Source: a virus
Lineage: Duplodnaviria; Caudoviricetes
Length of the DNA stretch: 64,000 bases
Strand: one strand, 5' to 3'
IMG/VR virus record: IMGVR_UViG_2974626280_000001
Span: 1 to 64,000 of that record
The notes beneath the pieces were generated by a model, which saw only the letters and a program-made list of their open reading frames with translations, was not told where the DNA came from and searched no databases. Below are positions 45,536-55,010 of this stretch, in pieces; positions within the stretch are counted from its first letter, which is position 1; every line of letters begins with the position of its first letter. The position numbers and the translations under genes are program-made.

Positions 45536-45939
45536 AACTTCTCCAAATAGCTTACTATCGGCTCTTTGCCGATAATTAATGTGGCCATAGACAATAACTC
45601 GTCTTTGGTCATTGAGTCCAGAGGGTGCGACGGATTTAATAATATAAAGTCGTTTGCGACCCGAATCAATACGAATGCGTGACCTTTCCAGTCGCGGCAT
45701 TGTCTGGCGAATCCGAGTTGGCCGCGCTCGAATTTACCGCGCAAAGGAAGAGTAGAGGCCCGTTTGGGCCAATCCTCCAGGTACTTGTTTTCGAGCCAGA
45801 ACATAGTGCCGTTGCGGTTTTGCCCGATGGTGTCGGGCATCGCTTCAGCTATGCTGTTCTCAATCCTCTTCAGGATCAGTTTCCGGCCCGCTGCTTTCTT
45901 CATCGGTTCGTACGTCTTCTTTTGTTCTGTCGTCGGCAT
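45532..45939 (-). CDS. PD-(D/E)xK nuclease (RecU/VRR-NUC-like)
   Basis: RIEN...MPD...FWLENK motif. Confidence 0.7.
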   Translation of the reverse strand: MPTTEQKKTYEPMKKAAGRKLILKRIENSIAEAMPDTIGQNRNGTMFWLENKYLEDWPKRASTLPLRGKFERGQLGFARQCRDWKGHAFVLIRVANDFILLNPSHPLDSMTKDELLSMATLIIGKEPIVSYLEKL

Positions 45940-48871
45940 GGCTTAGCACCCTTATGTTGTTGATAAAGAACATATCCAGACCGGAGAGTTTGAGCGCATT
46001 CATCATCACCCAAGAGCCTTTTGGCACGTTCTCTGCAATGTTACGACCCAGCCTTTCATAGTCCTGCTCTTTGATACGGAAGCGCATCGGCGAATCGCTC
46101 GAATCGTCAACGCACATAATATCGATGAACGCGGTTGGCCCTTCAATCCGTCCATCAGGTAAGTGATTCTTTTTAAGCACTTCTATGCCGCGCCTGTTAT
46201 CCCAGCGGGTGATACCCTTTTCCAGACGCTTTTTGATGCGAATCGGTTCGTTTTGGTCTGCAACGATTTTCTTAGTTATCTTGCCGATTACCAAGCCAAC
46301 TTCGCCGTCTTTAACGTCGCGCATATTCTCAGGCAGCACTTCTTTGGTACGCATCAGCGGCTTGCCATAATCCCACATCGGCTTACCATTACTGTCTTTA
46401 CGCTGCACCTTGATTAAAGTAGGCTTCTCATAGAGATGGCCGAACCGGGTGTGGGCCTCGTTAAGGTCGTTATACAGAACCTCTGCTTTCATCAGGCGGT
46501 CTTTATCGGCCTGAGTCAATACGCCGCGATTACGCTTATCGACGTACATGGCAGCCTTAGCAGGGCCATAACCTTTGGCGTTCATGATACCGCCTACCAG
46601 ACGACCGTCAGACGAAATGGTCCAGTTCATTTCGCTGTGATCAGGGTCAAGCGCGGTATAGTTAATTCCCTCTTTAGCCAGTTCACGAAGAATCGCAATG
46701 GTTTGCGTCTCATCTTTCGCTGCACGTAAACAGGCTGCGGCAAACTGTAGAGGGAAATAGCGCTTCAGGTAACAGGTCCAGTAGGTGATGATAGCGTATG
46801 ATACGGAGTGAGACTTGTTAAAGCCCCATGAACCGAATGTAACCATCTCACGCCAAATCTTTTCAGCCTGGTCCTTTGGTACGCCAGACTCAACCGCGCC
46901 GCGCACGAAGTCTTCACCCTGTTGGTTGAAGTATTCCTCACCTTTACGACCAGACATCGCCTTACGAACCGCAGAAGTCTTAACCCAGTCAAAGAGGCCA
47001 ATCTCTTTAACCACGGCCATGATCTGTTCCTGGTACAGGAATACACCGAATGTTTCGTCAAGATACGCCTTCAGCTGCGGCACGTCATAGACAACCTCTT
47101 CATCGCCTTTAGAGCGTGCGATATACTTCTGAGCCATACCGGATGCGAGCGGGCCGGGCCGCGCAAGTGCTGTCAGGTTATCGATTTTACTGAAGCGGTC
47201 GATATTAACGAAGCGGGCAACAGAGCGGACGGCGTCGCCCTCAAACTGGAAAATCCCTGACATCTTGTCCTCGTTCAGGACATCTAAAACGCTTTGATCA
47301 TCAAGGGTTAGCGAGTAGAGTTGTTCGATAGTTACCGCTCCAGTGTCGCCAATTATTCCAAGCGTACGCAGCCCAAGGGCATCGATTTTCAACAGGTCGA
47401 GATACTCGGAATCAGGCTTATCTATCTGAGCAATACCTTCCGCCGTAACGGTGCAATAATCTGATATCGGGTCATTACAGACGAGAATACCAGCAGCGTG
47501 AACGCCAGTGTGAGAAGGGTGAATCTCAAGGTCGCCCATGCAACGCGCGGCTTCAGGATATTGCTCAGAGAAGAGCTTGCCCGGTGTGGTCGTCGTCATT
47601 GTATCGTGCAGTCCTTTACCGTAACGCGCATCACCGGATGAATATTCAATCAGGGCGTTTTTGACGCTGTCTACAGCACCATAAGGAAGGCGAAAGCGCT
47701 TACTGACTACCGCCATCACGGAGTTAGCCTTGAGCGTGTTGATGTTACCCAGCTTTACGACGTTCTCTTTACCATACTTTTCTTGCAGGTAGTCGAACAC
47801 CATATAGCGTTTGGTATCCTCAAAGTCAATATCGATATCGGGTAAATCGGCGCGGCTGATATCGATAAAGCGCTGGAAAAGCAGCTTATGGGGCAGCGGG
47901 TCTACTTCGGTAATCTCCATGCAGTAGCACACCAGAGAGCCAGCAGACGAGCCGCGAGCGGGTCCAACGAGCATATGCTTTTTAGCGAACTTAACAAGGT
48001 CGGCAACCACCAGGAAGTAAGAATCAAATTTCTTGTTTTGAATCTGCTTGATTTCTTCCTGGAAACGGGCTTCATACTCCGGCGTCCACTCTTTGATGTG
48101 ACCCGCCTTTAAGCGGTACTCCATCCCCTCACGCGCCAGCGCTACCATATCACCATCGAGGTGAATAATTGGAGCCTTATTAAGAGCGCGGCCAGCAAGT
48201 GTTTCTGCCAGTCGAGTGGTTACGCCAATGGCGTCACAAAGCTCTTCATCGGTTGCAATACCTACCAAAGCAGATGTGTAGTCCTGCGCATCTTCAATAG
48301 TGCGCATACCTACAGATTCACGCGTTTCGAAAGCATAAGCAAAGTCTTTCTGCTCTTCTTTTGGAAGGTCGTTATATCCGGTGATGACCATTGGTTGCCC
48401 GGTTTCCCGGTGGGCCAATACGCCACGACGAGCGTGGAGCAACGACGACGGGTTGACGTCGATATAGTCGTACTGGTCAGGAGCCAGGAGAGCCAGCGCC
48501 CCGCCAGAGAATCGCACAACCCCTTCCAGCGCTCCGAACTCTTCAGGAGTCAGGCCGCCGTTCTGCACCGCTTTGGTGGTCGCGTTATAGAACTTGCGCA
48601 GGTCGTCTGCGAGAATCCAGGCCTTTGGACGGAAGCCAAGTCCCTGTAGACGCTCGTCGTCTACCTTGATTTGAATTTCCATCCCGAAGATGGGTTTTAT
48701 ATCGGCAGCCTTGCAGGCCTTTTCCCAGCGAACGTGACCCCAAGTATTGTTATCGACCATCGCGGCAATGGGGCAATTCAACTCTTTCAGCCGCGCAATG
48801 ATTTCGCCAGTACGGCCATAAACCTCTTTAAAGGTGTACGCGCTTCTTACGCGCAACTGAGGAAATGTCAT
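45860..48871 (-). CDS. dnaE: DNA polymerase III alpha-like (family C)
   Basis: GPARGSSAGSLVCY, LPDIDIDF, LLKIDALGL, VFLYQEQ and GFNKSH motifs. Confidence 0.95.
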   Translation of the reverse strand: MTFPQLRVRSAYTFKEVYGRTGEIIARLKELNCPIAAMVDNNTWGHVRWEKACKAADIKPIFGMEIQIKVDDERLQGLGFRPKAWILADDLRKFYNATTKAVQNGGLTPEEFGALEGVVRFSGGALALLAPDQYDYIDVNPSSLLHARRGVLAHRETGQPMVITGYNDLPKEEQKDFAYAFETRESVGMRTIEDAQDYTSALVGIATDEELCDAIGVTTRLAETLAGRALNKAPIIHLDGDMVALAREGMEYRLKAGHIKEWTPEYEARFQEEIKQIQNKKFDSYFLVVADLVKFAKKHMLVGPARGSSAGSLVCYCMEITEVDPLPHKLLFQRFIDISRADLPDIDIDFEDTKRYMVFDYLQEKYGKENVVKLGNINTLKANSVMAVVSKRFRLPYGAVDSVKNALIEYSSGDARYGKGLHDTMTTTTPGKLFSEQYPEAARCMGDLEIHPSHTGVHAAGILVCNDPISDYCTVTAEGIAQIDKPDSEYLDLLKIDALGLRTLGIIGDTGAVTIEQLYSLTLDDQSVLDVLNEDKMSGIFQFEGDAVRSVARFVNIDRFSKIDNLTALARPGPLASGMAQKYIARSKGDEEVVYDVPQLKAYLDETFGVFLYQEQIMAVVKEIGLFDWVKTSAVRKAMSGRKGEEYFNQQGEDFVRGAVESGVPKDQAEKIWREMVTFGSWGFNKSHSVSYAIITYWTCYLKRYFPLQFAAACLRAAKDETQTIAILRELAKEGINYTALDPDHSEMNWTISSDGRLVGGIMNAKGYGPAKAAMYVDKRNRGVLTQADKDRLMKAEVLYNDLNEAHTRFGHLYEKPTLIKVQRKDSNGKPMWDYGKPLMRTKEVLPENMRDVKDGEVGLVIGKITKKIVADQNEPIRIKKRLEKGITRWDNRRGIEVLKKNHLPDGRIEGPTAFIDIMCVDDSSDSPMRFRIKEQDYERLGRNIAENVPKGSWVMMNALKLSGLDMFFINNIRVLSHADDRTKEDVRTDEESSGPETDPEED

Positions 48872-48872
48872 G

Positions 48873-49415
48873 TTAATCTCCGAATATGTCGTAAACGCCT
48901 TGTGTCTGGCAAATTTTATGAAGCATCATGATATCGTCCAATGCCCTGTGCTTCTGAGTATACTTGCCTATAAACAATTCGTAAAGCTCTTGCAGCTTCA
49001 TCCTTCGACCGAATTGGGGATAGAATTGCTCAACGGTACATATTTGGATTTTAGGGAACTTCATGTCATCCAGCGTCAGGCCGATTCGACGCGCGGCATA
49101 GTCGATAATGTTTTTATCGAACGACATGTTGTGAGCAATAATGGCTTGGCCGCGACTGATGAAATCGGCTATCTGCTCATGCTGCTCTGCAAAGGTCTTG
49201 TTGACCTCAAGGTCTTCATTCGTCAACCCGGTGAGCTTTGTGATGATTTCTTCGATGATGATTTCAGGGTTGATAATCAATTCGAGGGTGTCGATGATTT
49301 CCTTTCCATCGGTAATGATTCCCGCGAATTCAATAGGGCGCGGCTGCAGGCCAAGCGGTGCCTGATGGTGAACGGTCAGGCCAGTGGTTTCGGTATCGAA
49401 TACGGTAAACAGCAT
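48873..49415 (-). CDS. dnaQ: DEDDh 3'-5' exonuclease (epsilon-like)
   Basis: DTETTG, AHNMSFD and HRALDD motifs. Confidence 0.88.
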   Translation of the reverse strand: MLFTVFDTETTGLTVHHQAPLGLQPRPIEFAGIITDGKEIIDTLELIINPEIIIEEIITKLTGLTNEDLEVNKTFAEQHEQIADFISRGQAIIAHNMSFDKNIIDYAARRIGLTLDDMKFPKIQICTVEQFYPQFGRRMKLQELYELFIGKYTQKHRALDDIMMLHKICQTQGVYDIFGD

Positions 49416-49429
49416 AATCTGCTCCTATG

Positions 49430-49453
49430 AAAAAGCGCCCAATCAAGGGCGCT
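49430..49453 (-). terminator. Intrinsic terminator after the VOC gene
   Basis: AGCGCCC-N6-GGGCGCT plus U-tract on the minus strand. Confidence 0.65.
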
Positions 49454-49470
49454 CTGTTAGCATCAACCAA

Positions 49471-50016
49471 TCAACCCTTTGCTGCTGTCACGGTTGGCTC
49501 AACATACGGCGTGTAATTGGTATTCAGGCGGACGATGAACTTGAGGTCAACGCCAAGCAGGTCGTAAGTGTCAAAGATTACGTAGTTGTAACGGCGCTCG
49601 TCTTTGATGGCTTCGTTGGTGTGGGTCTGCGTCATAACTTCTTGCGCAATCGCCACGCCTTTAGACGCGAAGTAAGCCCGGTAAGACAGCAACTCGTCAT
49701 TGGTGACGTGCATACCAAGGTGGCTTACACAATGCGGACGGTTCTCCAGCCAGTTGTTGCCTTTGGTGTAGTTAAGCACCTCCAGCTCCAGCGGCTTACC
49801 AGCTTCGACATCAGAGCCGCTGCCAGCCTGATAGTTGAAGTTCAGCTCTGCAATGTTAGTGCCGTTGGAGCCGTTAATCGCGCCAGTGGCGGTGACGACG
49901 TCCGTCACCCAACTGGTCAGGCCCAGGTCGCGTAGGATTTCAATGGCGACGTCGCTGTCAGGAGCGTTGAGAGCAATCTGCTGGATTTCGAATTTTTTCA
50001 CTTTAATCTTTTCCAT
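49471..50016 (-). CDS. VOC/glyoxalase-fold protein
   Basis: IQQIALNA, LELEVLNY, VSHLGMHV and DLKFI strands; start MEKIK after AAGGTG. Confidence 0.65.
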   Translation of the reverse strand: MEKIKVKKFEIQQIALNAPDSDVAIEILRDLGLTSWVTDVVTATGAINGSNGTNIAELNFNYQAGSGSDVEAGKPLELEVLNYTKGNNWLENRPHCVSHLGMHVTNDELLSYRAYFASKGVAIAQEVMTQTHTNEAIKDERRYNYVIFDTYDLLGVDLKFIVRLNTNYTPYVEPTVTAAKG

Positions 50017-50026
50017 TTTATTCACC

Positions 50027-50152
50027 TTAAATCTTGCAAGCGTCGCCGCAATCGTTATCGTCAGCGGACTCTTCAAATTCAACTTCTTTACGATTGTTGA
50101 CGCGCTCTACAGCTTCGTCAACGCCAGGGATTTCAAAATCGTCTTCGCCCAT
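50027..50152 (-). CDS. 41-aa acidic dithiol peptide resembling the ribonucleotide reductase R1 C-terminal tail (absent from ORF track)
   Basis: Manual translation MGEDDFEIPGVDEAVERVNNRKEVEFEESADDNDCGDACKI; AAGGT RBS; fills the SDR-VOC gap. Confidence 0.8.
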   Translation of the reverse strand: MGEDDFEIPGVDEAVERVNNRKEVEFEESADDNDCGDACKI

Positions 50153-50160
50153 AGTTTACC

Positions 50161-50838
50161 TTATTTACCGAAGGGGATGTCAGTACCAGACATGTACTTA
50201 TAGCTGCCTGATTCGATGAGGTGGCCGATGAATTCCGCGATGGACTCCGGCGGCGTTTCCAGACCGTGCATCAGAGCCTTGCGTTGGTACTCCGCAGCAA
50301 ACTCTGGCGTCCAGCCGCGAACCTTGCAGACGTTCTCTTCAATCTGCTTGGACATGCCAGTACCAGCCAGCTTGTTAGGGCTGATAGAGAACACCGTGAT
50401 GCCGTGCTTAGGCGTCAGTTCATGCGCCATCTGCTTAGTGATCATCAGACCCGCTGCTTTAGACGCGTTGTAAGCCAGGCTGGACGTCATAGGGATGTGC
50501 GCAGCGTTTGAAACGATGTTGATAACGAAGCCTTTCGACGCAATGAGTTGCGGCAGAACCGCCTGAGTCATAGCGACGAAAGAAAATGCGTTAACGTGCA
50601 TCACATGGTCGAACTGCTCAACACTTACTTCTTCAAACCACTCGTTGCGGTTGATACCGGCACAGTTGATCAGACCGTCGACTTTGTCGAGTTCACTTAC
50701 CCACTTTGGCGGGTCTTGAACAGTCTGGTTAGGAGCAACGTTGCGGTCAAATTCGATAACCTGAATTCCGTTGAACTCCAGGACAGAAGCGATTTCACGA
50801 CCTAAACCAGAAGAAGAGCCTGTTACGATAACTTTCAT
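50161..50838 (-). CDS. Classical short-chain dehydrogenase/reductase
   Basis: TGSSSGLG, NCAG and YNASK motifs. Confidence 0.9.
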   Translation of the reverse strand: MKVIVTGSSSGLGREIASVLEFNGIQVIEFDRNVAPNQTVQDPPKWVSELDKVDGLINCAGINRNEWFEEVSVEQFDHVMHVNAFSFVAMTQAVLPQLIASKGFVINIVSNAAHIPMTSSLAYNASKAAGLMITKQMAHELTPKHGITVFSISPNKLAGTGMSKQIEENVCKVRGWTPEFAAEYQRKALMHGLETPPESIAEFIGHLIESGSYKYMSGTDIPFGK

Positions 50839-50900
50839 TATTATTTCCCGTTCGTTTAAGATGAGATAAGAATACGCCCCTTTGGAAGAGGCGTCAACCT

Positions 50901-52001
50901 TTATTTGATTTTGATAGTGTGCGTATTAATCAGCGGCTCCAGCATCGCTGCATACACGGTTAAATCCAGAATCGAGTCCTGATGAGTCAGACCGCTGTTG
51001 GTGAAGCGCGTCAACTTAACAATAAGCAGCTCGAAGAGGTGCCACATGTTATAGTCTTCCTGCGTCTTCAACTCAACGCCATTCGGAAACAGCGCGGCCA
51101 TCACCTTACCGACGACCAGCGCGTTGTCTTTATAGACGGCGTTACGCTCACGGAACGTTGCGGCGGCTTCTTCCAGCACGTCAGCCGCGATACGGCCTGA
51201 CTTGTATTGGGCGCGAAGAGCATCGAGCGTGTCAACAGGTTGAGTTCGCTCCAGCTTCTCCGGGACTTCCACCGGGCGCACCGCCGCGCGGGTGTAGTAG
51301 TCGCCCAACTCGACGGCGCTGCAAGGGTATGCCAGAGTTGAGTCATCTGTTTCCTTCAACAGCGCCGCAATTAGAGGGTTAGTGGCGCAGCGCATTGTGG
51401 TGTGCGGCTTGAAGACGAAGTCGTGGCGTCCTTTGAATCTGACAGGGAACGCACTATCAACCTCTTGAGATTCGCCTTTGCGAATTTTCGCAATAATGTG
51501 CTCGTTGCCGCCAGCAATGACCATCTTTTTGGTCACCAGCCAAGGCTCAATAATAGCAGCATCAAATTCACGGTACATCTTAATAACGTCAGGGTGATCA
51601 TCGAATGCGATGATGTGCTCATACTCATGGCCAGGCATCAAAAGGAACTTTTCCAGCATCTGGCGCTTCAGCGTCGCACTTGGCACGCCGTCTTCGTGAT
51701 CAGCTCGCATAGCCAGAACTTTGTACTGGTCATCGGAAATACCGATAACATGATTCAACTGGTATTTGGTCACGCCAAAAATCCTCTGCGGCCTTGCGGT
51801 AAAAAAGGCGATATCCATGCCAGCCGCTAAGGCGTAGGCGACGAGGTGAGAGCCGATTGGCAGCGCCGTATCTTTAGCCATCTGCTCTTCAGAATGATAC
51901 GCGTCAAAGTTCCGATTAGCCCAGTCGATGAGCGGTACACGGTGGGAATCGTCGATAGTGCAGCCGTCAAGGTCAAAGATAGCCAGTGTTCTGTTAGTCA
52001 T
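50901..52001 (-). CDS. HAD phosphatase fused to a DUF6378-like all-alpha domain
   Basis: FDLDGCT, FTAR and FDDHPD motifs; C-terminal LEEAAATFRERNAVY...KLTRF...DSILDLTVYAAML. Confidence 0.75.
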   Translation of the reverse strand: MTNRTLAIFDLDGCTIDDSHRVPLIDWANRNFDAYHSEEQMAKDTALPIGSHLVAYALAAGMDIAFFTARPQRIFGVTKYQLNHVIGISDDQYKVLAMRADHEDGVPSATLKRQMLEKFLLMPGHEYEHIIAFDDHPDVIKMYREFDAAIIEPWLVTKKMVIAGGNEHIIAKIRKGESQEVDSAFPVRFKGRHDFVFKPHTTMRCATNPLIAALLKETDDSTLAYPCSAVELGDYYTRAAVRPVEVPEKLERTQPVDTLDALRAQYKSGRIAADVLEEAAATFRERNAVYKDNALVVGKVMAALFPNGVELKTQEDYNMWHLFELLIVKLTRFTNSGLTHQDSILDLTVYAAMLEPLINTHTIKIK

Positions 52002-52288
52002 TCTACACGCCCTATTGATTTAGAATATTGATAGTAAAAGTCAATCTTATTTAACTTTGCCATAATCTTATCTTCATTAGGCTCAAAGTTAAAGCCGAAT
52101 TTATCAGTCAGCAACGAAAGTACAGCAAACAAGTCTTGCACTTCATTTTGCAGACGTTCACGATTCGGCGGCGTGCTGTCGTTCATACGCTCATCAAGGC
52201 CGAAGCGGTCGCACTTGGAGCATTCCTGGGCTATCTCAGCACACTCTTCAGCAAGTAGCCCAAGAAGGAATTGATCACGTGTTTTCAT
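51998..52288 (-). CDS. MazG-like nucleotide pyrophosphohydrolase
   Basis: LAEECAEIAQ...NEVQDL (EExxE...ExxD). Confidence 0.75.
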   Translation of the reverse strand: MKTRDQFLLGLLAEECAEIAQECSKCDRFGLDERMNDSTPPNRERLQNEVQDLFAVLSLLTDKFGFNFEPNEDKIMAKLNKIDFYYQYSKSIGRVE

Positions 52289-53121
52289 CAGCCGCTCGAC
52301 TTGCCATTGTTGGCTACCGGGTTATTGGTCTGAACTTCAATATTCCAGAAGTCCTGTTTAAGTTTTGCTTTCTCCGCTTCCAGGTCCATCCACGGACGCC
52401 AGAAGGGGCAATGAGCCTTACCGTGGCGAGGGAAAGCGCACTGGCCAGTGGCTACGCAAGCGACTTGAAGCAGCGGCTCAGCCCACCAATGGACTTCGAG
52501 AATCAAGCGGCGCATCTCACGGAAAACCTCTTGGTACTCTCCTTGTGTACGCGTACAGAGGCGAGTCTTGGCGGTCTCAGAGAGCGTGCGCAGGTTGAAC
52601 TTCGCCTGAATACGTGTCGACATGTTAGACGGCATGATACCACGAGCGTCTTGCAGTTCGGCCCCTGCCGCGATAAGCTCGGCATACAGCGCGTCAATGG
52701 TCGCCATGCCATCGTCCCATAGTTCGGCACGATTTTGCTTGGCGCGAAGATTGTTGATTCGCTCCTCATCATTGGAGCTAAAAACATCCACTGTTTGATC
52801 AGGATTAAGGTGCTCAAACGCTTTCGGACGAACCGCATCAAACGCTGAAATTTCAAGTGCGCGGCTGGTTTCCTGCTGATAAGCTCCGGTGCGCGTTCTC
52901 ACCAATTGGTGAGTAAAGTTCTTGCTCACTCCAGAGATATCAAAAACGTAATCGACGAATTCAAACGGCGACTTGATGGTGTCCAGCATATACTTAAAGT
53001 GGTCTGCCTTCTCCTGCTCAGTCATAGTCTTTGGGTCAGCGCCGCGCATACGTGCGGACTTAGTACCCAGCAAAAGCTCCAGCGCGTTAGGAGTAACGCT
53101 AATAAGTTCAACTTTCATCAT
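52288..53121 (-). CDS. thyX: Divergent flavin-dependent thymidylate synthase (ThyX) homolog
   Basis: SPFEF, GVSKNFTHQLVRTR, QDARGIMP, NLRTL and RLCTRTQGE motifs, with non-canonical active-site residues. Confidence 0.8.
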   Translation of the reverse strand: MMKVELISVTPNALELLLGTKSARMRGADPKTMTEQEKADHFKYMLDTIKSPFEFVDYVFDISGVSKNFTHQLVRTRTGAYQQETSRALEISAFDAVRPKAFEHLNPDQTVDVFSSNDEERINNLRAKQNRAELWDDGMATIDALYAELIAAGAELQDARGIMPSNMSTRIQAKFNLRTLSETAKTRLCTRTQGEYQEVFREMRRLILEVHWWAEPLLQVACVATGQCAFPRHGKAHCPFWRPWMDLEAEKAKLKQDFWNIEVQTNNPVANNGKSSG

Positions 53122-53534
53122 TTGAAGTCCACAATGTCGTATTCAGAAGTCAGGCCGCAAGTATAGATTTTCGACCCATATTTAGTCACTACCTGGGAAC
53201 CGTCGCCAAGAACGATTACCAATAATTCTGCGCTCTTGCGCGTCTCAGGATGGAAGAAGGCATCACGATTCCCTTCCAACTTAATTGGCGCGGCGTCTTC
53301 GATTACAATTTGCTGGCCGGACGGTAAGATGACCCGGAAATCAGCGCCACCGTAGCCAGCAGGCGTGGCCGCAAGCGTCATCTGGTGGTTAAGGTCGGCA
53401 CTGGCACAGGCGTAGTCCCAGCTCTTGTTTACGGCGCGTACCTGGGCGTCAGCGCCCGGTGCGAAGAAGCCGAAGAGGAAAGCGGCCAGAAGCAGCAGTC
53501 CATACCAACGTTCGCCTTTAAGTAAGTTTTTCAT
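53118..53534 (-). CDS. Hypothetical exported protein
   Basis: 138 aa; signal peptide and Cys pair; own promoter. Confidence 0.75.
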   Translation of the reverse strand: MKNLLKGERWYGLLLLAAFLFGFFAPGADAQVRAVNKSWDYACASADLNHQMTLAATPAGYGGADFRVILPSGQQIVIEDAAPIKLEGNRDAFFHPETRKSAELLVIVLGDGSQVVTKYGSKIYTCGLTSEYDIVDFK

Positions 53535-53562
53535 CTTACACCTCCGATTAGTTGTTAAAGTG

Positions 53563-53591
53563 ATTATCGCTCATCCTTGAGCAGAAAGCAA
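53563..53591 (-). promoter_or_regulatory. Promoter with palindromic spacer
   Basis: TTGCTT-N17-GATAAT; GCTCA-AGGA-TGAGC inverted repeat in the spacer. Confidence 0.75.
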
Positions 53592-53598
53592 GTTTATT

Positions 53599-53976
53599 TT
53601 ACCACTCTTCACGACCGGTGACGATGCACGGAATAAGCTTGCTACCATCGACGACGATAGACGCAGTATTGTTGCGCATATCCTTCTTGGTGATTCCGAT
53701 GCTTACTACATGGTTGCCGTTGAAAGCGCTCTGCATGACGTAAACTTCACCGTCAGCATTAATGCCACGGCGCGTTCCGCCATTGGTTGGGTAGTTAACG
53801 CCGTTGTAATCGATAGCGTTTAAGATACCCTGCGGAGTGCGCGATTGCGAGTACAGGAGAGGTTTGCCGCCGCAAATCATACGGAAGTAAACAGCGCTTG
53901 ACTCAGCATGAACGGCTACGGGGCAAAGGGTTGAGGCGGCGACGATAGCGGCTGCTGCAATAATAAAACGTTTCAT
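53599..53976 (-). CDS. Hypothetical exported protein
   Basis: Start MKRFIIAAAA; signal peptide; Cys pair. Confidence 0.75.
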   Translation of the reverse strand: MKRFIIAAAAIVAASTLCPVAVHAESSAVYFRMICGGKPLLYSQSRTPQGILNAIDYNGVNYPTNGGTRRGINADGEVYVMQSAFNGNHVVSIGITKKDMRNNTASIVVDGSKLIPCIVTGREEW

Positions 53977-54012
53977 TTTTAATTCCTTCAATTGTTTTGT
54001 TTCGATAGAATG

Positions 54013-54041
54013 ATTATCGCTCATCCTTGAGCGTACGTCAA
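54013..54041 (-). promoter_or_regulatory. Promoter with palindromic spacer
   Basis: TTGACG-N17-GATAAT; 22 bp identical to 53561-53582. Confidence 0.8.
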
Positions 54042-54047
54042 GCACTT

Positions 54048-55010
54048 TTATTTAAAATTTTTGAGACGTTGATAATTAGTCGCGTGGATAAGGTTATCGA
54101 CCTTTAAAACGTCGTCGGCTACGTCGTCCAGTAACAGGTTTCGCCATGTAGCGAAGCGACCGATAGAGAAGACGCGGAATTGAGACGTCAACTCATAGAG
54201 TACCGCCTGTCGCAAGTCCTGCGGCATGTCGACAATCTTACCATAGCGCTGATCAACGACTTCGGCAGACGCGATGTCGACCTGAGTTGGGTGCAGACCG
54301 AACTTGCCAGCTATGTACGCCAGCTCGATATCCGTATCCATATAACTGCCGCCGTTCTCTATCATTTCGACAATCATAGTGTCGCCAGTGATAGAGGCGC
54401 GATAGGTCTTAAGGTCTTCGGCAGGGAAATAGATTGTTTGGTAAATGTCGCATGGAACATTCACCTTGAAGCGGTGAACGCTGATGCTCTGACGGGCGAA
54501 CGCGAAAGGGATTTGCTCATCGTGTTCGAGGTTGGTAATCTTCATCATCACCTGCATAGGGATAGTGCTGATGATTGAAGGGCGGTTATCGAGGTTGAAA
54601 TTGAAAGCCTCATCAATCGGAGTCTCAAATAAGATTCGGTCCTCACCAACCTCTTCAATGAGTCGGTCATAGAAGTCGTCAGGCGCAATGTAGCGCGTCG
54701 CCGTCTCCAGCTTCATGATGCTGCGGCCAGAGAGCTGCCCTGTTACCTTCAGCGAGTACATGTTGGCAAGGTTGAGCGGGCAAGTGCCCTGATGCATCTG
54801 GTTGCCGTAAACAACGGCCTTATCCACGCGTACGGCGCGGAAAGGAATTCCGGTCAGCTTTGATACCTCTTCGCCGCGAAAACGCAGGAGAGCGCGGTGC
54901 TGTGGCATTCTTGGGCCTGCTTCATACACGGGCGCTTTCTTGAAGTGGCAAGCGGTGATAAGGCCAGCAAGTCCTGCCCCGGCGATTACGATTGATTTGG
55001 TCAGGTTCAT
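54048..55010 (-). CDS. FAD-dependent oxidoreductase, UDP-galactopyranose-mutase/amine-oxidase-like
   Basis: N-terminal GAGLAG...VYE dinucleotide fold; C-terminal SIGRFATWR motif. Confidence 0.7.
   Translation of the reverse strand: MNLTKSIVIAGAGLAGLITACHFKKAPVYEAGPRMPQHRALLRFRGEEVSKLTGIPFRAVRVDKAVVYGNQMHQGTCPLNLANMYSLKVTGQLSGRSIMKLETATRYIAPDDFYDRLIEEVGEDRILFETPIDEAFNFNLDNRPSIISTIPMQVMMKITNLEHDEQIPFAFARQSISVHRFKVNVPCDIYQTIYFPAEDLKTYRASITGDTMIVEMIENGGSYMDTDIELAYIAGKFGLHPTQVDIASAEVVDQRYGKIVDMPQDLRQAVLYELTSQFRVFSIGRFATWRNLLLDDVADDVLKVDNLIHATNYQRLKNFK

What the first reader, a model, noticed from the sequence alone, without database searches (positions are those of the whole stretch)
50027..50152. 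Unannotated 41-aa peptide resembling the redox tail of ribonucleotide reductase
Seen: MGEDDFEIPGVDEAVERVNNRKEVEFEESADDNDCGDACKI, with its own RBS, exactly filling the SDR-VOC gap. Established: E. coli NrdA ends DDGCESGACKI, and that flexible acidic dithiol tail shuttles electrons from thioredoxin/glutaredoxin to the active site. No nrd genes are in the window. Inference: a free-standing electron shuttle that feeds a reductive step of this pathway or acts in trans on host RNR; alternatively a decoy for Trx/Grx.
Basis: partly seen in the sequence, partly recalled or inferred. Interest (0 to 1): 0.8.

Follow-up and report, generated by a model that had tools for sequence, protein, structure and literature searches.

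The report
Free-standing ribonucleotide reductase tail microprotein
This phage, which has no ribonucleotide reductase of its own, carries a real 41-residue gene from a widespread, unnamed family of tiny acidic proteins (in phages and in many enterobacterial chromosomes) that end in a copy of the two-cysteine "recharging" tail of the bacterial DNA-precursor enzyme; it probably plugs into the host's supply of DNA building blocks, but nobody has tested that.

Summary
The ORF is exactly as described: window 50027-50152, minus strand, 41 aa, own Shine-Dalgarno, wedged between the SDR and VOC genes. It is a real gene.

- **Relatives:** close relatives keep both ends. E. coli Wifcevirus TH32 has a 39-aa homologue at the same position.
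- **Family:** it belongs to a family of 35-72-aa acidic proteins. They carry an N-terminal "DF.IPG[LV]DEA.ER"-type motif and a C-terminal tail, C-x3/4-C-[KTA]-[IL]-COOH.
- **Tail:** the tail is letter-for-letter the redox tail of class Ia NrdA (DDCGDACKI in Xenorhabdus NrdA, DDGCESGACKI in E. coli-type NrdA).
- **Distribution:** marine phages, jumbo Erwinia/Dickeya/Klebsiella phages, and a monocistronic chromosomal gene in many Enterobacteriaceae and Advenella. All copies are annotated "hypothetical".
- **Selection:** dN/dS is 0.05-0.15.
- **RNR:** all 50 peptide-bearing viral records tested lack an RNR large subunit.

That slot is empty or holds unrelated small genes in relatives.

The best reading is a trans-acting mimic of the NrdA tail that engages the host thioredoxin/glutaredoxin-NrdA thiol relay. 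Whether it boosts or blocks the relay is unknown. I found no published description. This scan had already noted the same family on other DNA.

The parts
50027..50152 (-). 41-aa acidic microprotein gene (stop included). N-terminal motif EDDFEIPGVDEAVER, acidic linker, C-terminal tail DDNDCGDACKI-COOH. pI about 4.05; 15 Asp/Glu against 4 Lys/Arg.
   Evidence: establish the ORF and its composition. establish the homologues and the family.
50158..50163 (-). Shine-Dalgarno TAAGGT for the microprotein. It overlaps the TAA stop of the SDR gene and lies six bases before the ATG.
   Evidence: Read directly.
50023..50028 (-). Shine-Dalgarno AAGGTG of the downstream VOC gene. It overlaps the microprotein's stop codon, so the genes are tightly packed and possibly translationally coupled.
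   Evidence: Read directly.
50161..50838 (-). Upstream neighbour: a short-chain dehydrogenase/reductase. It is not part of the microprotein system and is given for context.
   Evidence: PF00106, E = 2.9e-37.
49471..50016 (-). Downstream neighbour: a VOC/glyoxalase-like protein of 181 aa starting at ATG 50016. The listed TTG start at 50082 would overlap the microprotein. Given for context.
   Evidence: Relatives are annotated as glyoxalase family proteins.

Best explanation
The ORF encodes a translated, intrinsically disordered accessory microprotein. It acts on host proteins by imitating the flexible C-terminal redox tail of class Ia ribonucleotide reductase alpha (NrdA).

**Proposed mechanism (inferred, not shown).**
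1. The acidic N-terminal motif (DF.IPG[LV]DEA.ER) docks the peptide on a host partner.
2. The terminal C-x3-C-K-I dithiol is reduced by host thioredoxin or glutaredoxin, exactly as the NrdA tail is.
3. It then enters the NrdA active site and reduces the Cys225-Cys462-type disulfide.
4. The peptide therefore serves as an extra, diffusible shuttle. It keeps host RNR turning over while the enzyme's own tail is away being re-reduced.

For a phage with no RNR of its own, this would raise dNTP supply from the host enzyme.

**What is shown.** The gene is real and conserved, its tail is identical to NrdA tails, the phage lacks RNR, Trx and Grx, and the family is widespread.

**What is inferred.** The partners, and above all the direction of the effect (boost rather than block).
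For: 1. **Tail identity.** DDCGDACKI-COOH ends true 762-aa and 826-aa NrdA proteins (L134 Xenorhabdus; L165/L182). DDGCESGACKI ends enterobacterial NrdA.
2. **Same tail variants as NrdA.** The microprotein family carries both tail types, plus CAGGACKI, CSSGACAI, CDGGACTI and others. It always has two Cys spaced 3 or 4 apart, an acidic run before them, and a [KTA][IL]-COOH end.
3. **Purifying selection on the protein.** dN/dS is 0.05-0.15 in four groups, also with the tail codons left out.
4. **RNR-less carriers.** None of the 50 peptide-bearing viral records has PF02867: own record, 5 marine records, 42 records including more than 15 jumbo phages, and TH32 and SPLA10. 33 of these are at least 90% complete by CheckV. 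The own genome also lacks NrdB, NrdD, Grx and Trx.
5. **A separate lineage from NrdA.** A profile of the family retrieves only small proteins and no NrdA. The second conserved motif is therefore specific to the free form, as expected for an anchor that replaces covalent tethering.
[quoted passage not shown] A second reductant acting on the active site meanwhile raises RNR activity (Domkin and Chabes 2014, PMC4078304).
Against: - No experiment exists, and no complex model could be run with these tools.
- The absence of RNR is weak statistically. Relatives without the peptide (Bas98, MyoSmar, XcP1) lack RNR too. The measured baseline is only a lower bound of 10% of phage records with an RNR alpha. 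The 50 records represent perhaps a dozen independent lineages.
- The tail does not always match the host's. TH32 infects E. coli, whose NrdA has C-x4-C (CESGACKI), yet TH32 carries C-x3-C.
- Bacteria that encode the microprotein have an NrdA with an intact tail of its own, so no obvious need for a spare is visible.
- No NrdR box precedes the bacterial copies.
- The same tail is fused to unrelated phage domains. This fits an 'address tag' as well as it fits a shuttle.
Confidence: 0.45

Rival explanations
1. Competitive decoy or inhibitor. The peptide competes with the NrdA tail for thioredoxin/glutaredoxin or for the NrdA active site, or its acidic-hydrophobic N-terminus competes with the NrdB tail for its cleft on NrdA. 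It would lower host RNR activity or drain the Trx/Grx pool. This would resemble the small disordered yeast inhibitor Sml1, which interferes with regeneration by the R1 C-terminus.
For: - It shares the tail identity and acidic character of the best explanation.
- Bacteria with an intact NrdA tail still keep a separate, monocistronic copy with its own promoter and terminator. That suits a regulator better than a spare part.
- The N-terminal ..IDLDNLVF.. of the enterobacterial copies loosely resembles the NrdB end ..DDLSNFQL.
- Sml1 is cited as a precedent in PMC4078304, reference 16.
Against: - A phage without RNR gains nothing obvious by blocking the host enzyme.
- All carriers tested lack their own RNR, whereas an inhibitor of the host enzyme would sit well with a phage-encoded replacement.
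- The resemblance to the NrdB tail is weak and absent from many members.
Confidence: 0.25
2. Recruitment handle. The tail is a portable address that binds host thioredoxin or glutaredoxin (or NrdA), bringing it to whatever is attached or holding it away from something else, such as a Trx-dependent host or defence function. The short free forms would be minimal versions.
For: The identical tail ends unrelated phage proteins:
- 263-360-aa proteins with no Pfam match, including the SPLA10 protein, which carries the whole microprotein module at its end
- an N4 gp49/Sf6 gp66-family domain
- a zinc ribbon
- 61-aa beta/helix proteins

Against: - In the 35-41-aa members nothing but the acidic motif is attached.
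- The fused N-terminal domains gave no functional clue. The AF2 model had pLDDT 61 and Foldseek found no match.
Confidence: 0.15
3. The peptide is the dedicated dithiol electron carrier of the neighbouring SDR/VOC (thyX-MazG-HAD-SDR-VOC) nucleotide-modification pathway.
For: It lies inside that gene row, with overlapping translation signals. TH32 has it at the same place.
Against: - The pathway genes are conserved without the peptide in XcP1, Gekk3-15, Pluto, PA1, MTx, MyoSmar, TropicalSun and Bas98. In those phages the slot is empty or holds unrelated genes.
- The family occurs in many genomes without these neighbours.
Confidence: 0.04
4. The two cysteines are not a redox relay. The acidic peptide would instead bind a metal, or serve as a substrate for some modification.
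For: A Cys pair in an acidic peptide could bind soft metal ions. There is no direct evidence.
Against: - No maturase or metal-handling gene is a conserved neighbour.
- Exact identity with NrdA tails, down to the terminal K-I, is not explained.
Confidence: 0.06

Closest known systems
C-terminal redox tail of class Ia ribonucleotide reductase alpha (E. coli NrdA Cys754/Cys759, ..DDGCESGACKI)
   Same: The last 9-11 residues are the same: an acidic run, two Cys spaced 3 or 4 apart, and a terminal K-I. The match is exact to Xenorhabdus-type NrdA (DDCGDACKI). The tail is disordered and acidic, and the microprotein family shows the same range of tail variants as NrdA.
   Different: It is not attached to any RNR: it is 41 aa with no catalytic barrel. 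It carries an extra conserved N-terminal motif that NrdA lacks, and a profile of the family finds no NrdA. It is encoded by genomes without RNR (phages), or alongside an NrdA that keeps its own tail (bacteria).
Small disordered RNR regulators of yeasts (Sml1, Spd1, Hug1, Dif1); named from my own knowledge and from reference 16 of PMC4078304
   Same: These are small, disordered proteins acting on the RNR large subunit. Sml1 is reported to interfere with regeneration by the R1 C-terminal cysteine pair.
   Different: No sequence relationship was tested or is expected. They are eukaryotic and are inhibitors. They do not themselves carry a copy of the R1 tail.
Dedicated RNR electron donors (thioredoxin, glutaredoxin, NrdH; Grx::NrdB fusions)
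   Same: They would take part in the same thiol-disulfide relay to the RNR active site.
   Different: Those are folded thioredoxin-fold proteins with a CxxC motif. This peptide has no such fold or motif, and no Pfam or NCBIfam match. It imitates the acceptor, not the donor.
PHROG 14561 (51-position phage family, function unknown)
   Same: The tail region of a fused family member matched its C-terminal positions. It probably holds some members of this family.
   Different: The window's peptide itself did not match any PHROG at E <= 0.01. The PHROG has no annotation.

Membership tests
Class Ia RNR alpha subunit (NrdA) | Catalytic ten-stranded barrel domain (Pfam Ribonuc_red_lgC, PF02867) | tested here: not met
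   The protein has 41 aa and no Pfam family at E <= 0.01. PF02867 is absent from the whole phage record.
Class Ia RNR alpha subunit (NrdA) | C-terminal redox-active cysteine pair on an acidic flexible tail ending K-I | tested here: met
   DDNDCGDACKI-COOH compares with DDCGDACKI in the Xenorhabdus NrdA (L134) and DDGCESGACKI in enterobacterial NrdA. Only the sequence was tested, not the redox activity.
Free-standing RNR-tail microproteins (undescribed family, defined here and in earlier notes of this scan) | Stand-alone ORF of about 35-72 aa whose match runs to the C-terminus | tested here: met
   The 88%-identical P0004 scores E = 4.2e-7 against the family profile. The window's own sequence was in the seed alignment.
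Free-standing RNR-tail microproteins (undescribed family, defined here and in earlier notes of this scan) | Acidic N-terminal motif with spaced hydrophobic residues, often ..DF.IPG[LV]D[DE]A.[DE]R.. | tested here: met
   The window's EDDFEIPGVDEAVER aligns with IPGVDDAEDR (Erwinia jumbo phages), FNGLDEAEER (Enterobacteriaceae) and DIPDLDEAEQR.
Free-standing RNR-tail microproteins (undescribed family, defined here and in earlier notes of this scan) | In phages: the carrier genome lacks an RNR large subunit | tested here: met
   0 of 50 peptide-bearing viral records have PF02867.
Thioredoxin/glutaredoxin superfamily | Thioredoxin fold with a CxxC active site | tested here: not met
   There is no Pfam or NCBIfam match. 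The cysteine spacing is C-x3-C at the extreme C-terminus of a 41-aa acidic peptide.
Split RNR (tail encoded as a separate gene next to a tail-less nrdA) | A partner NrdA that lacks its own cysteine pair, in the same genome | tested here: not met
   The phage has no nrdA. Bacteria with the chromosomal microprotein have an NrdA with a complete tail.
Sml1-like RNR inhibitors | Binding to the RNR large subunit and inhibition of its regeneration | not testable with these tools
   This needs biochemistry or multimer modelling. No sequence comparison was made.

The most novel reading that the evidence does not exclude
A diffusible copy of the RNR recharging tail is a so far unrecognised layer of control over deoxynucleotide supply. 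RNR-less phages from several unrelated lineages, and many Enterobacteriaceae themselves, would make a microprotein that docks on class Ia RNR and delivers (or withholds) electrons in trans. Phages would then be able to tune the host enzyme without encoding an RNR.
Probability: 0.35. Interest if true: 0.85.

Novelty: new variant of a known kind. Interest (0 to 1): 0.7.

Why it matters
RNR sets the rate of DNA-precursor supply. Its C-terminal cysteine tail is textbook biochemistry as a covalently attached part of the enzyme. A conserved, separately encoded tail would be a new way of regulating or hijacking RNR. It is present in unrelated RNR-less phages (marine phages, jumbo Erwinia/Dickeya/Klebsiella phages, Wifcevirus-like phages) and as a stand-alone gene in many Enterobacteriaceae.

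It would also give a simple, synthesisable peptide tool for probing or modulating the thioredoxin/glutaredoxin-RNR relay. The claim can be tested directly with existing E. coli NrdAB assays and with cultured phages that carry the gene (TH32, Erwinia phage Alexandra or Y3, Klebsiella phage Miami).

Tried and rejected
**Searches that found nothing or little**
- Word-based homologue searches found only one close relative, and no longer forms. The family was reached through DNA patterns instead.
- The PDB sequence search found nothing.
- Pfam, NCBIfam and PHROGs gave no match for the peptide.
- The ESM Atlas returned only unnamed small clusters scoring below 0.9.
- Full-text searches for CGDACKI gave 0 papers. 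GACKI gave only unrelated words. General RNR-tail and phage terms found no description of free-standing tails.

**Hypotheses tested and rejected**
- *Split RNR tail:* rejected. There is no nrdA near any free peptide, and the bacterial carriers have an intact NrdA tail.
- *NrdR regulation of the bacterial copies:* no NrdR-box-like site within 4 mismatches in the 300 bp upstream of 104 copies.
- *Conserved operon partner:* none. Neighbours differ between genera and between phage groups.

**Other dead ends**
- Function from fused forms: the N-terminal domains have no informative family. The AF2 model of the SPLA10 fusion was mediocre (pLDDT 61, 4-sequence alignment), and Foldseek against the PDB gave nothing at E <= 0.001.
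The DNA of the closest relatives (P0004 group) could therefore not be fetched, and no dN/dS could be computed for the window's own clade.
- The E. coli complete genomes have no chromosomal copy at blastn sensitivity.

Full report
**1.

The minus-strand ORF 50152..50027 encodes MGEDDFEIPGVDEAVERVNNRKEVEFEESADDNDCGDACKI. It is 41 aa, with pI about 4.05 and 15 acidic against 4 basic residues.

Translation signals, read:
- The stop of the upstream SDR gene (50163-50161) lies inside a TAAGGT Shine-Dalgarno, six bases before the ATG.
- The peptide's own stop (50029-50027) lies inside the AAGGTG Shine-Dalgarno of the VOC gene, whose ATG is at 50016.

Neighbours on the same strand:

| Gene | Coordinates |
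|---|---|
| ThyX-like | 52288-53121 |
| MazG-like | 51998-52288 |
| HAD/PNKP-like | 50901-52001 |
| SDR | 50161-50838 |
| Microprotein | 50027-50152 |
| VOC-like protein | 49471-50016 |
| DnaQ-like exonuclease | 48873-49415 |
| DnaE-like polymerase (by synteny with annotated relatives) | 45860-48871 |

The window is part of a 73,168-bp viral record with direct terminal repeats, rated 100% complete. Its nearest cultured relatives are:
- Serratia Myosmarvirus phages, about 79% nucleotide identity over the SDR gene
- by the VOC protein, Wifcevirus (E. coli), Carpasinavirus (Xanthomonas) and others

**2. It is a real gene**

- Three 41-aa proteins from other contigs are 88-90% identical. All their changes lie in the linker, apart from one A->S inside the tail (CGDSCKI).
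- Escherichia virus TH32 (Wifcevirus) has a 39-aa homologue, MEEEFNIPGLDEEKDYAAEVVSKEETHEADNVCGDACKI, directly upstream of its VOC gene.
- I could not fetch DNA of the closest relatives, so selection was measured on other branches of the family.
- dN/dS is 0.05 (Enterobacteriaceae, 63 distinct alleles), 0.05 (Advenella), 0.15 (marine phages) and 0.13 (jumbo phages). These values exclude the tail codons that my search pattern fixed.

**3. It belongs to a large family**

*Viral contigs, CGDACKI-stop.* The degenerate DNA pattern hits 68 viral contigs. My estimate from its roughly 36 bits of information is 1-2 chance hits.
- 67 of the hits end small ORFs, mostly 35-aa proteins of marine phages of the type MEEDFVLPDNMFTDNPVFVDTSQEFDDDCGDACKI.
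- One ends a 762-aa NrdA.

They include:
- a 46-aa protein, MEIDLDNLVFNGLDEAEERNAERLDDADKKAQAIVADDDCGDACKI, in Enterobacter, Citrobacter, Klebsiella, Raoultella, Kluyvera, Leclercia, Lelliottia, Cedecea, Yokenella, Trabulsiella and others
- 47-49-aa versions in Advenella and relatives
- single cases in other phyla
- true NrdA proteins of Xenorhabdus (762 aa) and of a second lineage (826 aa) ending in DDCGDACKI

*Viral contigs, NrdA-type C-x4-C pattern (CE.GACKI-stop).* This gives 64 viral contigs. They split into:
- true NrdA, about 760 aa, ending ..YYxNTRDG...DDGCESGACKI
- many 40-62-aa free-standing proteins, for example MSNPDNPLADYFNADAVIPGVDDAEDRVEAMRDGGGEVVDEKDADGCESGACKI in 260-kb phages

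tblastn places these 54-aa proteins in Erwinia phages (Alexandra, Y3, the pEa_SNUABM series), Dickeya AD1, Klebsiella Miami and Stenotrophomonas BUCTxx100. All are annotated 'hypothetical protein'.

*One architecture.* An alignment of 25 diverse members (A1) shows:
- an acidic N-terminal motif with spaced hydrophobic residues, often DF.IPG[LV]D[DE]A.[DE]R
- a variable acidic linker
- the tail

*Profile search.* A profile of A1 finds 55 clusters at E <= 0.001 among 1.84 billion representatives.
- Nearly all are 41-72 aa, with the match running to the last residue.
- None is an NrdA.
- Freed from my search pattern, the tail varies as CGD[ASG]CKI, CE[SG]GACKI, CAGGACKI, CSSGACAI, CDGGACTI and ..CKL.
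- The constant features are two Cys spaced 3 or 4 apart, a preceding acidic run, and a [KTA][IL] end.

*Annotation.* No Pfam, NCBIfam or PHROG family names the window's peptide. Every database name is 'hypothetical protein'.

**4. What it is not**

*Not part of the SDR/VOC pathway.* The pathway genes are conserved, but the SDR-VOC slot varies:

| Content of the slot | Phages |
|---|---|
| Empty | XcP1, Gekk3-15, Pluto, PA1 |
| Unrelated 55-64-aa protein | MTx, MyoSmar, TropicalSun, Bas98 |
| 71-aa protein with a hydrophobic N-terminus | Bas98, TH32 |
| Tail microprotein | TH32 and the window's clade only |

So the microprotein is an accessory gene dropped into a variable slot.

*Not a split RNR tail.*
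- No nrdA lies near the free peptides.
- The phage has no class I/II alpha, beta or class III RNR.
- Enterobacter, Citrobacter, Klebsiella, Advenella and Pelistega genomes that carry the chromosomal C-x3-C microprotein also have an NrdA with a complete DD(G)CESGACKI tail.

*Not an operon member in bacteria.*
- Neighbours differ between genera.
- In Enterobacteriaceae the gene has its own TATACT/TATAAT -10 box, its own Shine-Dalgarno, and a rho-independent terminator.
- No NrdR-box-like site precedes it.
- E. coli complete genomes lack it.

**5. What points to RNR**

- *Tail sequence.* The tail is the NrdA tail, including both of its natural spacings.
- *RNR absent from carriers.* Every peptide-bearing viral record I tested lacks PF02867:
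  - own genome
  - 5 marine records
  - 42 further records, including more than fifteen 210-320-kb phages
  - TH32 and SPLA10

  That is 50 in all, 33 of them at least 90% complete by CheckV.
- *Caveats on that result.*
  - At least 5,000 of 50,697 cultured phage records encode an RNR alpha, which is only a lower bound.
  - Relatives without the peptide are RNR-less as well.
  - The 50 records are perhaps a dozen independent lineages.
  - The association is therefore suggestive, not proven.
- *Host partners.* The own genome also lacks thioredoxin and glutaredoxin, so any redox partner is the host's.

**6. Mechanism**

[quoted passage not shown] That pair is in turn reduced by thioredoxin or glutaredoxin. 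The oxidised tail has to leave the active site to be re-reduced, and a second reductant acting on the active site in the meantime increases activity (PMC4078304).

*Most likely reading (0.45).* The microprotein is a trans-acting tail.
- It is reduced by host Trx or Grx.
- Its N-terminal motif anchors it in place of the covalent tether.
- It adds reducing capacity at the host NrdA active site, which helps an RNR-less phage.
- As context only: some Wifcevirus phages are reported to replicate extremely fast (PMC11990801).

*Main rival (0.25).* The same contacts give a decoy or inhibitor in the manner of yeast Sml1.
- The stand-alone, separately transcribed bacterial copies beside an intact NrdA tail fit a regulator well.
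- The enterobacterial N-terminus ..IDLDNLVF.. faintly recalls the NrdB end ..DDLSNFQL.

*Third reading (0.15).* The tail is an address for Trx, Grx or NrdA. This rests on natural fusions of the tail, or of the whole module, to unrelated phage proteins:
- the SPLA10 282-aa protein and its homologues
- 263-360-aa proteins
- an N4 gp49/Sf6 gp66-family domain
- a zinc ribbon

Modelling the SPLA10 protein gave a moderately confident helical/beta N-terminal domain. The C-terminal 80 residues were disordered apart from a short helix over ..DDALERVDAKR... No structural match was found.

**7. Novelty**

- I found no paper describing a free-standing RNR tail protein. These searches cover open-access full text only.
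- Earlier notes of this scan had flagged the same family on other DNA: jumbo Erwinia phages, a phiEcoM-GJ1-like coliphage and others. My results agree with them.
- This report adds:
  - the chromosomal enterobacterial and Advenella genes with their own promoter and terminator
  - the marine phage branch
  - the C-x3-C tail type and its exact match to Xenorhabdus-type NrdA
  - the selection measurements
  - the demonstration that, in this lineage, the gene sits in a variable slot and is not part of the neighbouring pathway

I rate it a new variant of a known kind (the RNR redox tail as a detached, mobile module), of high interest but with its function untested.

Noticed in passing
window 48873-55010 (minus strand): The gene row of a 320-aa protein (no Pfam), ThyX-like, MazG-like, HAD/PNKP-like, SDR and VOC-like genes lies directly upstream of dnaQ-dnaE. 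From ThyX onward it is conserved in Wifcevirus, Myosmarvirus and Carpasinavirus phages, Aeromonas Gekk3-15 and Luteibacter Pluto; in Pantoea PA1 only the HAD/PNKP-like, SDR and VOC genes were seen. It is a candidate nucleotide-modification or salvage pathway whose chemistry I did not pursue.
   Followed up: partly
window 49471-50082: The mechanical ORF list gives the VOC gene a TTG start at 50082, which would overlap the microprotein in another frame. The ATG at 50016, with an AAGGTG Shine-Dalgarno, matches relatives (MEKIKVKK..) and is the likely start.
   Followed up: yes
L093:3869-4009 and about 100 other bacterial loci (L083-L201): Many Enterobacteriaceae (not E. coli) carry a monocistronic 46-aa gene, MEIDLDNLVF.GL[DE]EA.ERNAERL..DDDCGDACKI, with its own -10 box and terminator. 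In Enterobacter and Citrobacter it lies about 500 bp upstream of a cystine/amino-acid-type ABC transporter operon. Its regulator is unknown.
   Followed up: partly
L134:2157-4445 (Xenorhabdus szentirmaii) and L045: The Xenorhabdus NrdA ends in C-x3-C (DDCGDACKI) instead of the usual enterobacterial C-x4-C. The last 55 residues of the NrdA on the IMG/VR contig behind L045 are identical to it, so that contig is probably a bacterial or prophage region.
   Followed up: no
L031:2469-4292 and 20 or more similar marine viral loci: In marine phages the 35-aa microprotein overlaps, by an ATGA junction, the start of a roughly 600-aa protein with no Pfam or PHROG match. The pair lies between tail-fibre genes and DUF5675/exonuclease genes.
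   Followed up: partly
L261:1193-1582; L212:1249-1437; L203:3234-3416: The RNR-like tail is fused to an N4 gp49/Sf6 gp66-family domain, to a small zinc ribbon, and to a 50-aa beta/helix module. It behaves as a mobile C-terminal module.
   Followed up: partly
L002:3778-3993 (TH32) and L008:2268-2483 (Bas98): A conserved 71-aa protein with a hydrophobic N-terminal segment (MNKAW.AVIGLVLLVVLGYTI..) occupies the same SDR-VOC slot in Wifcevirus phages.
   Followed up: no
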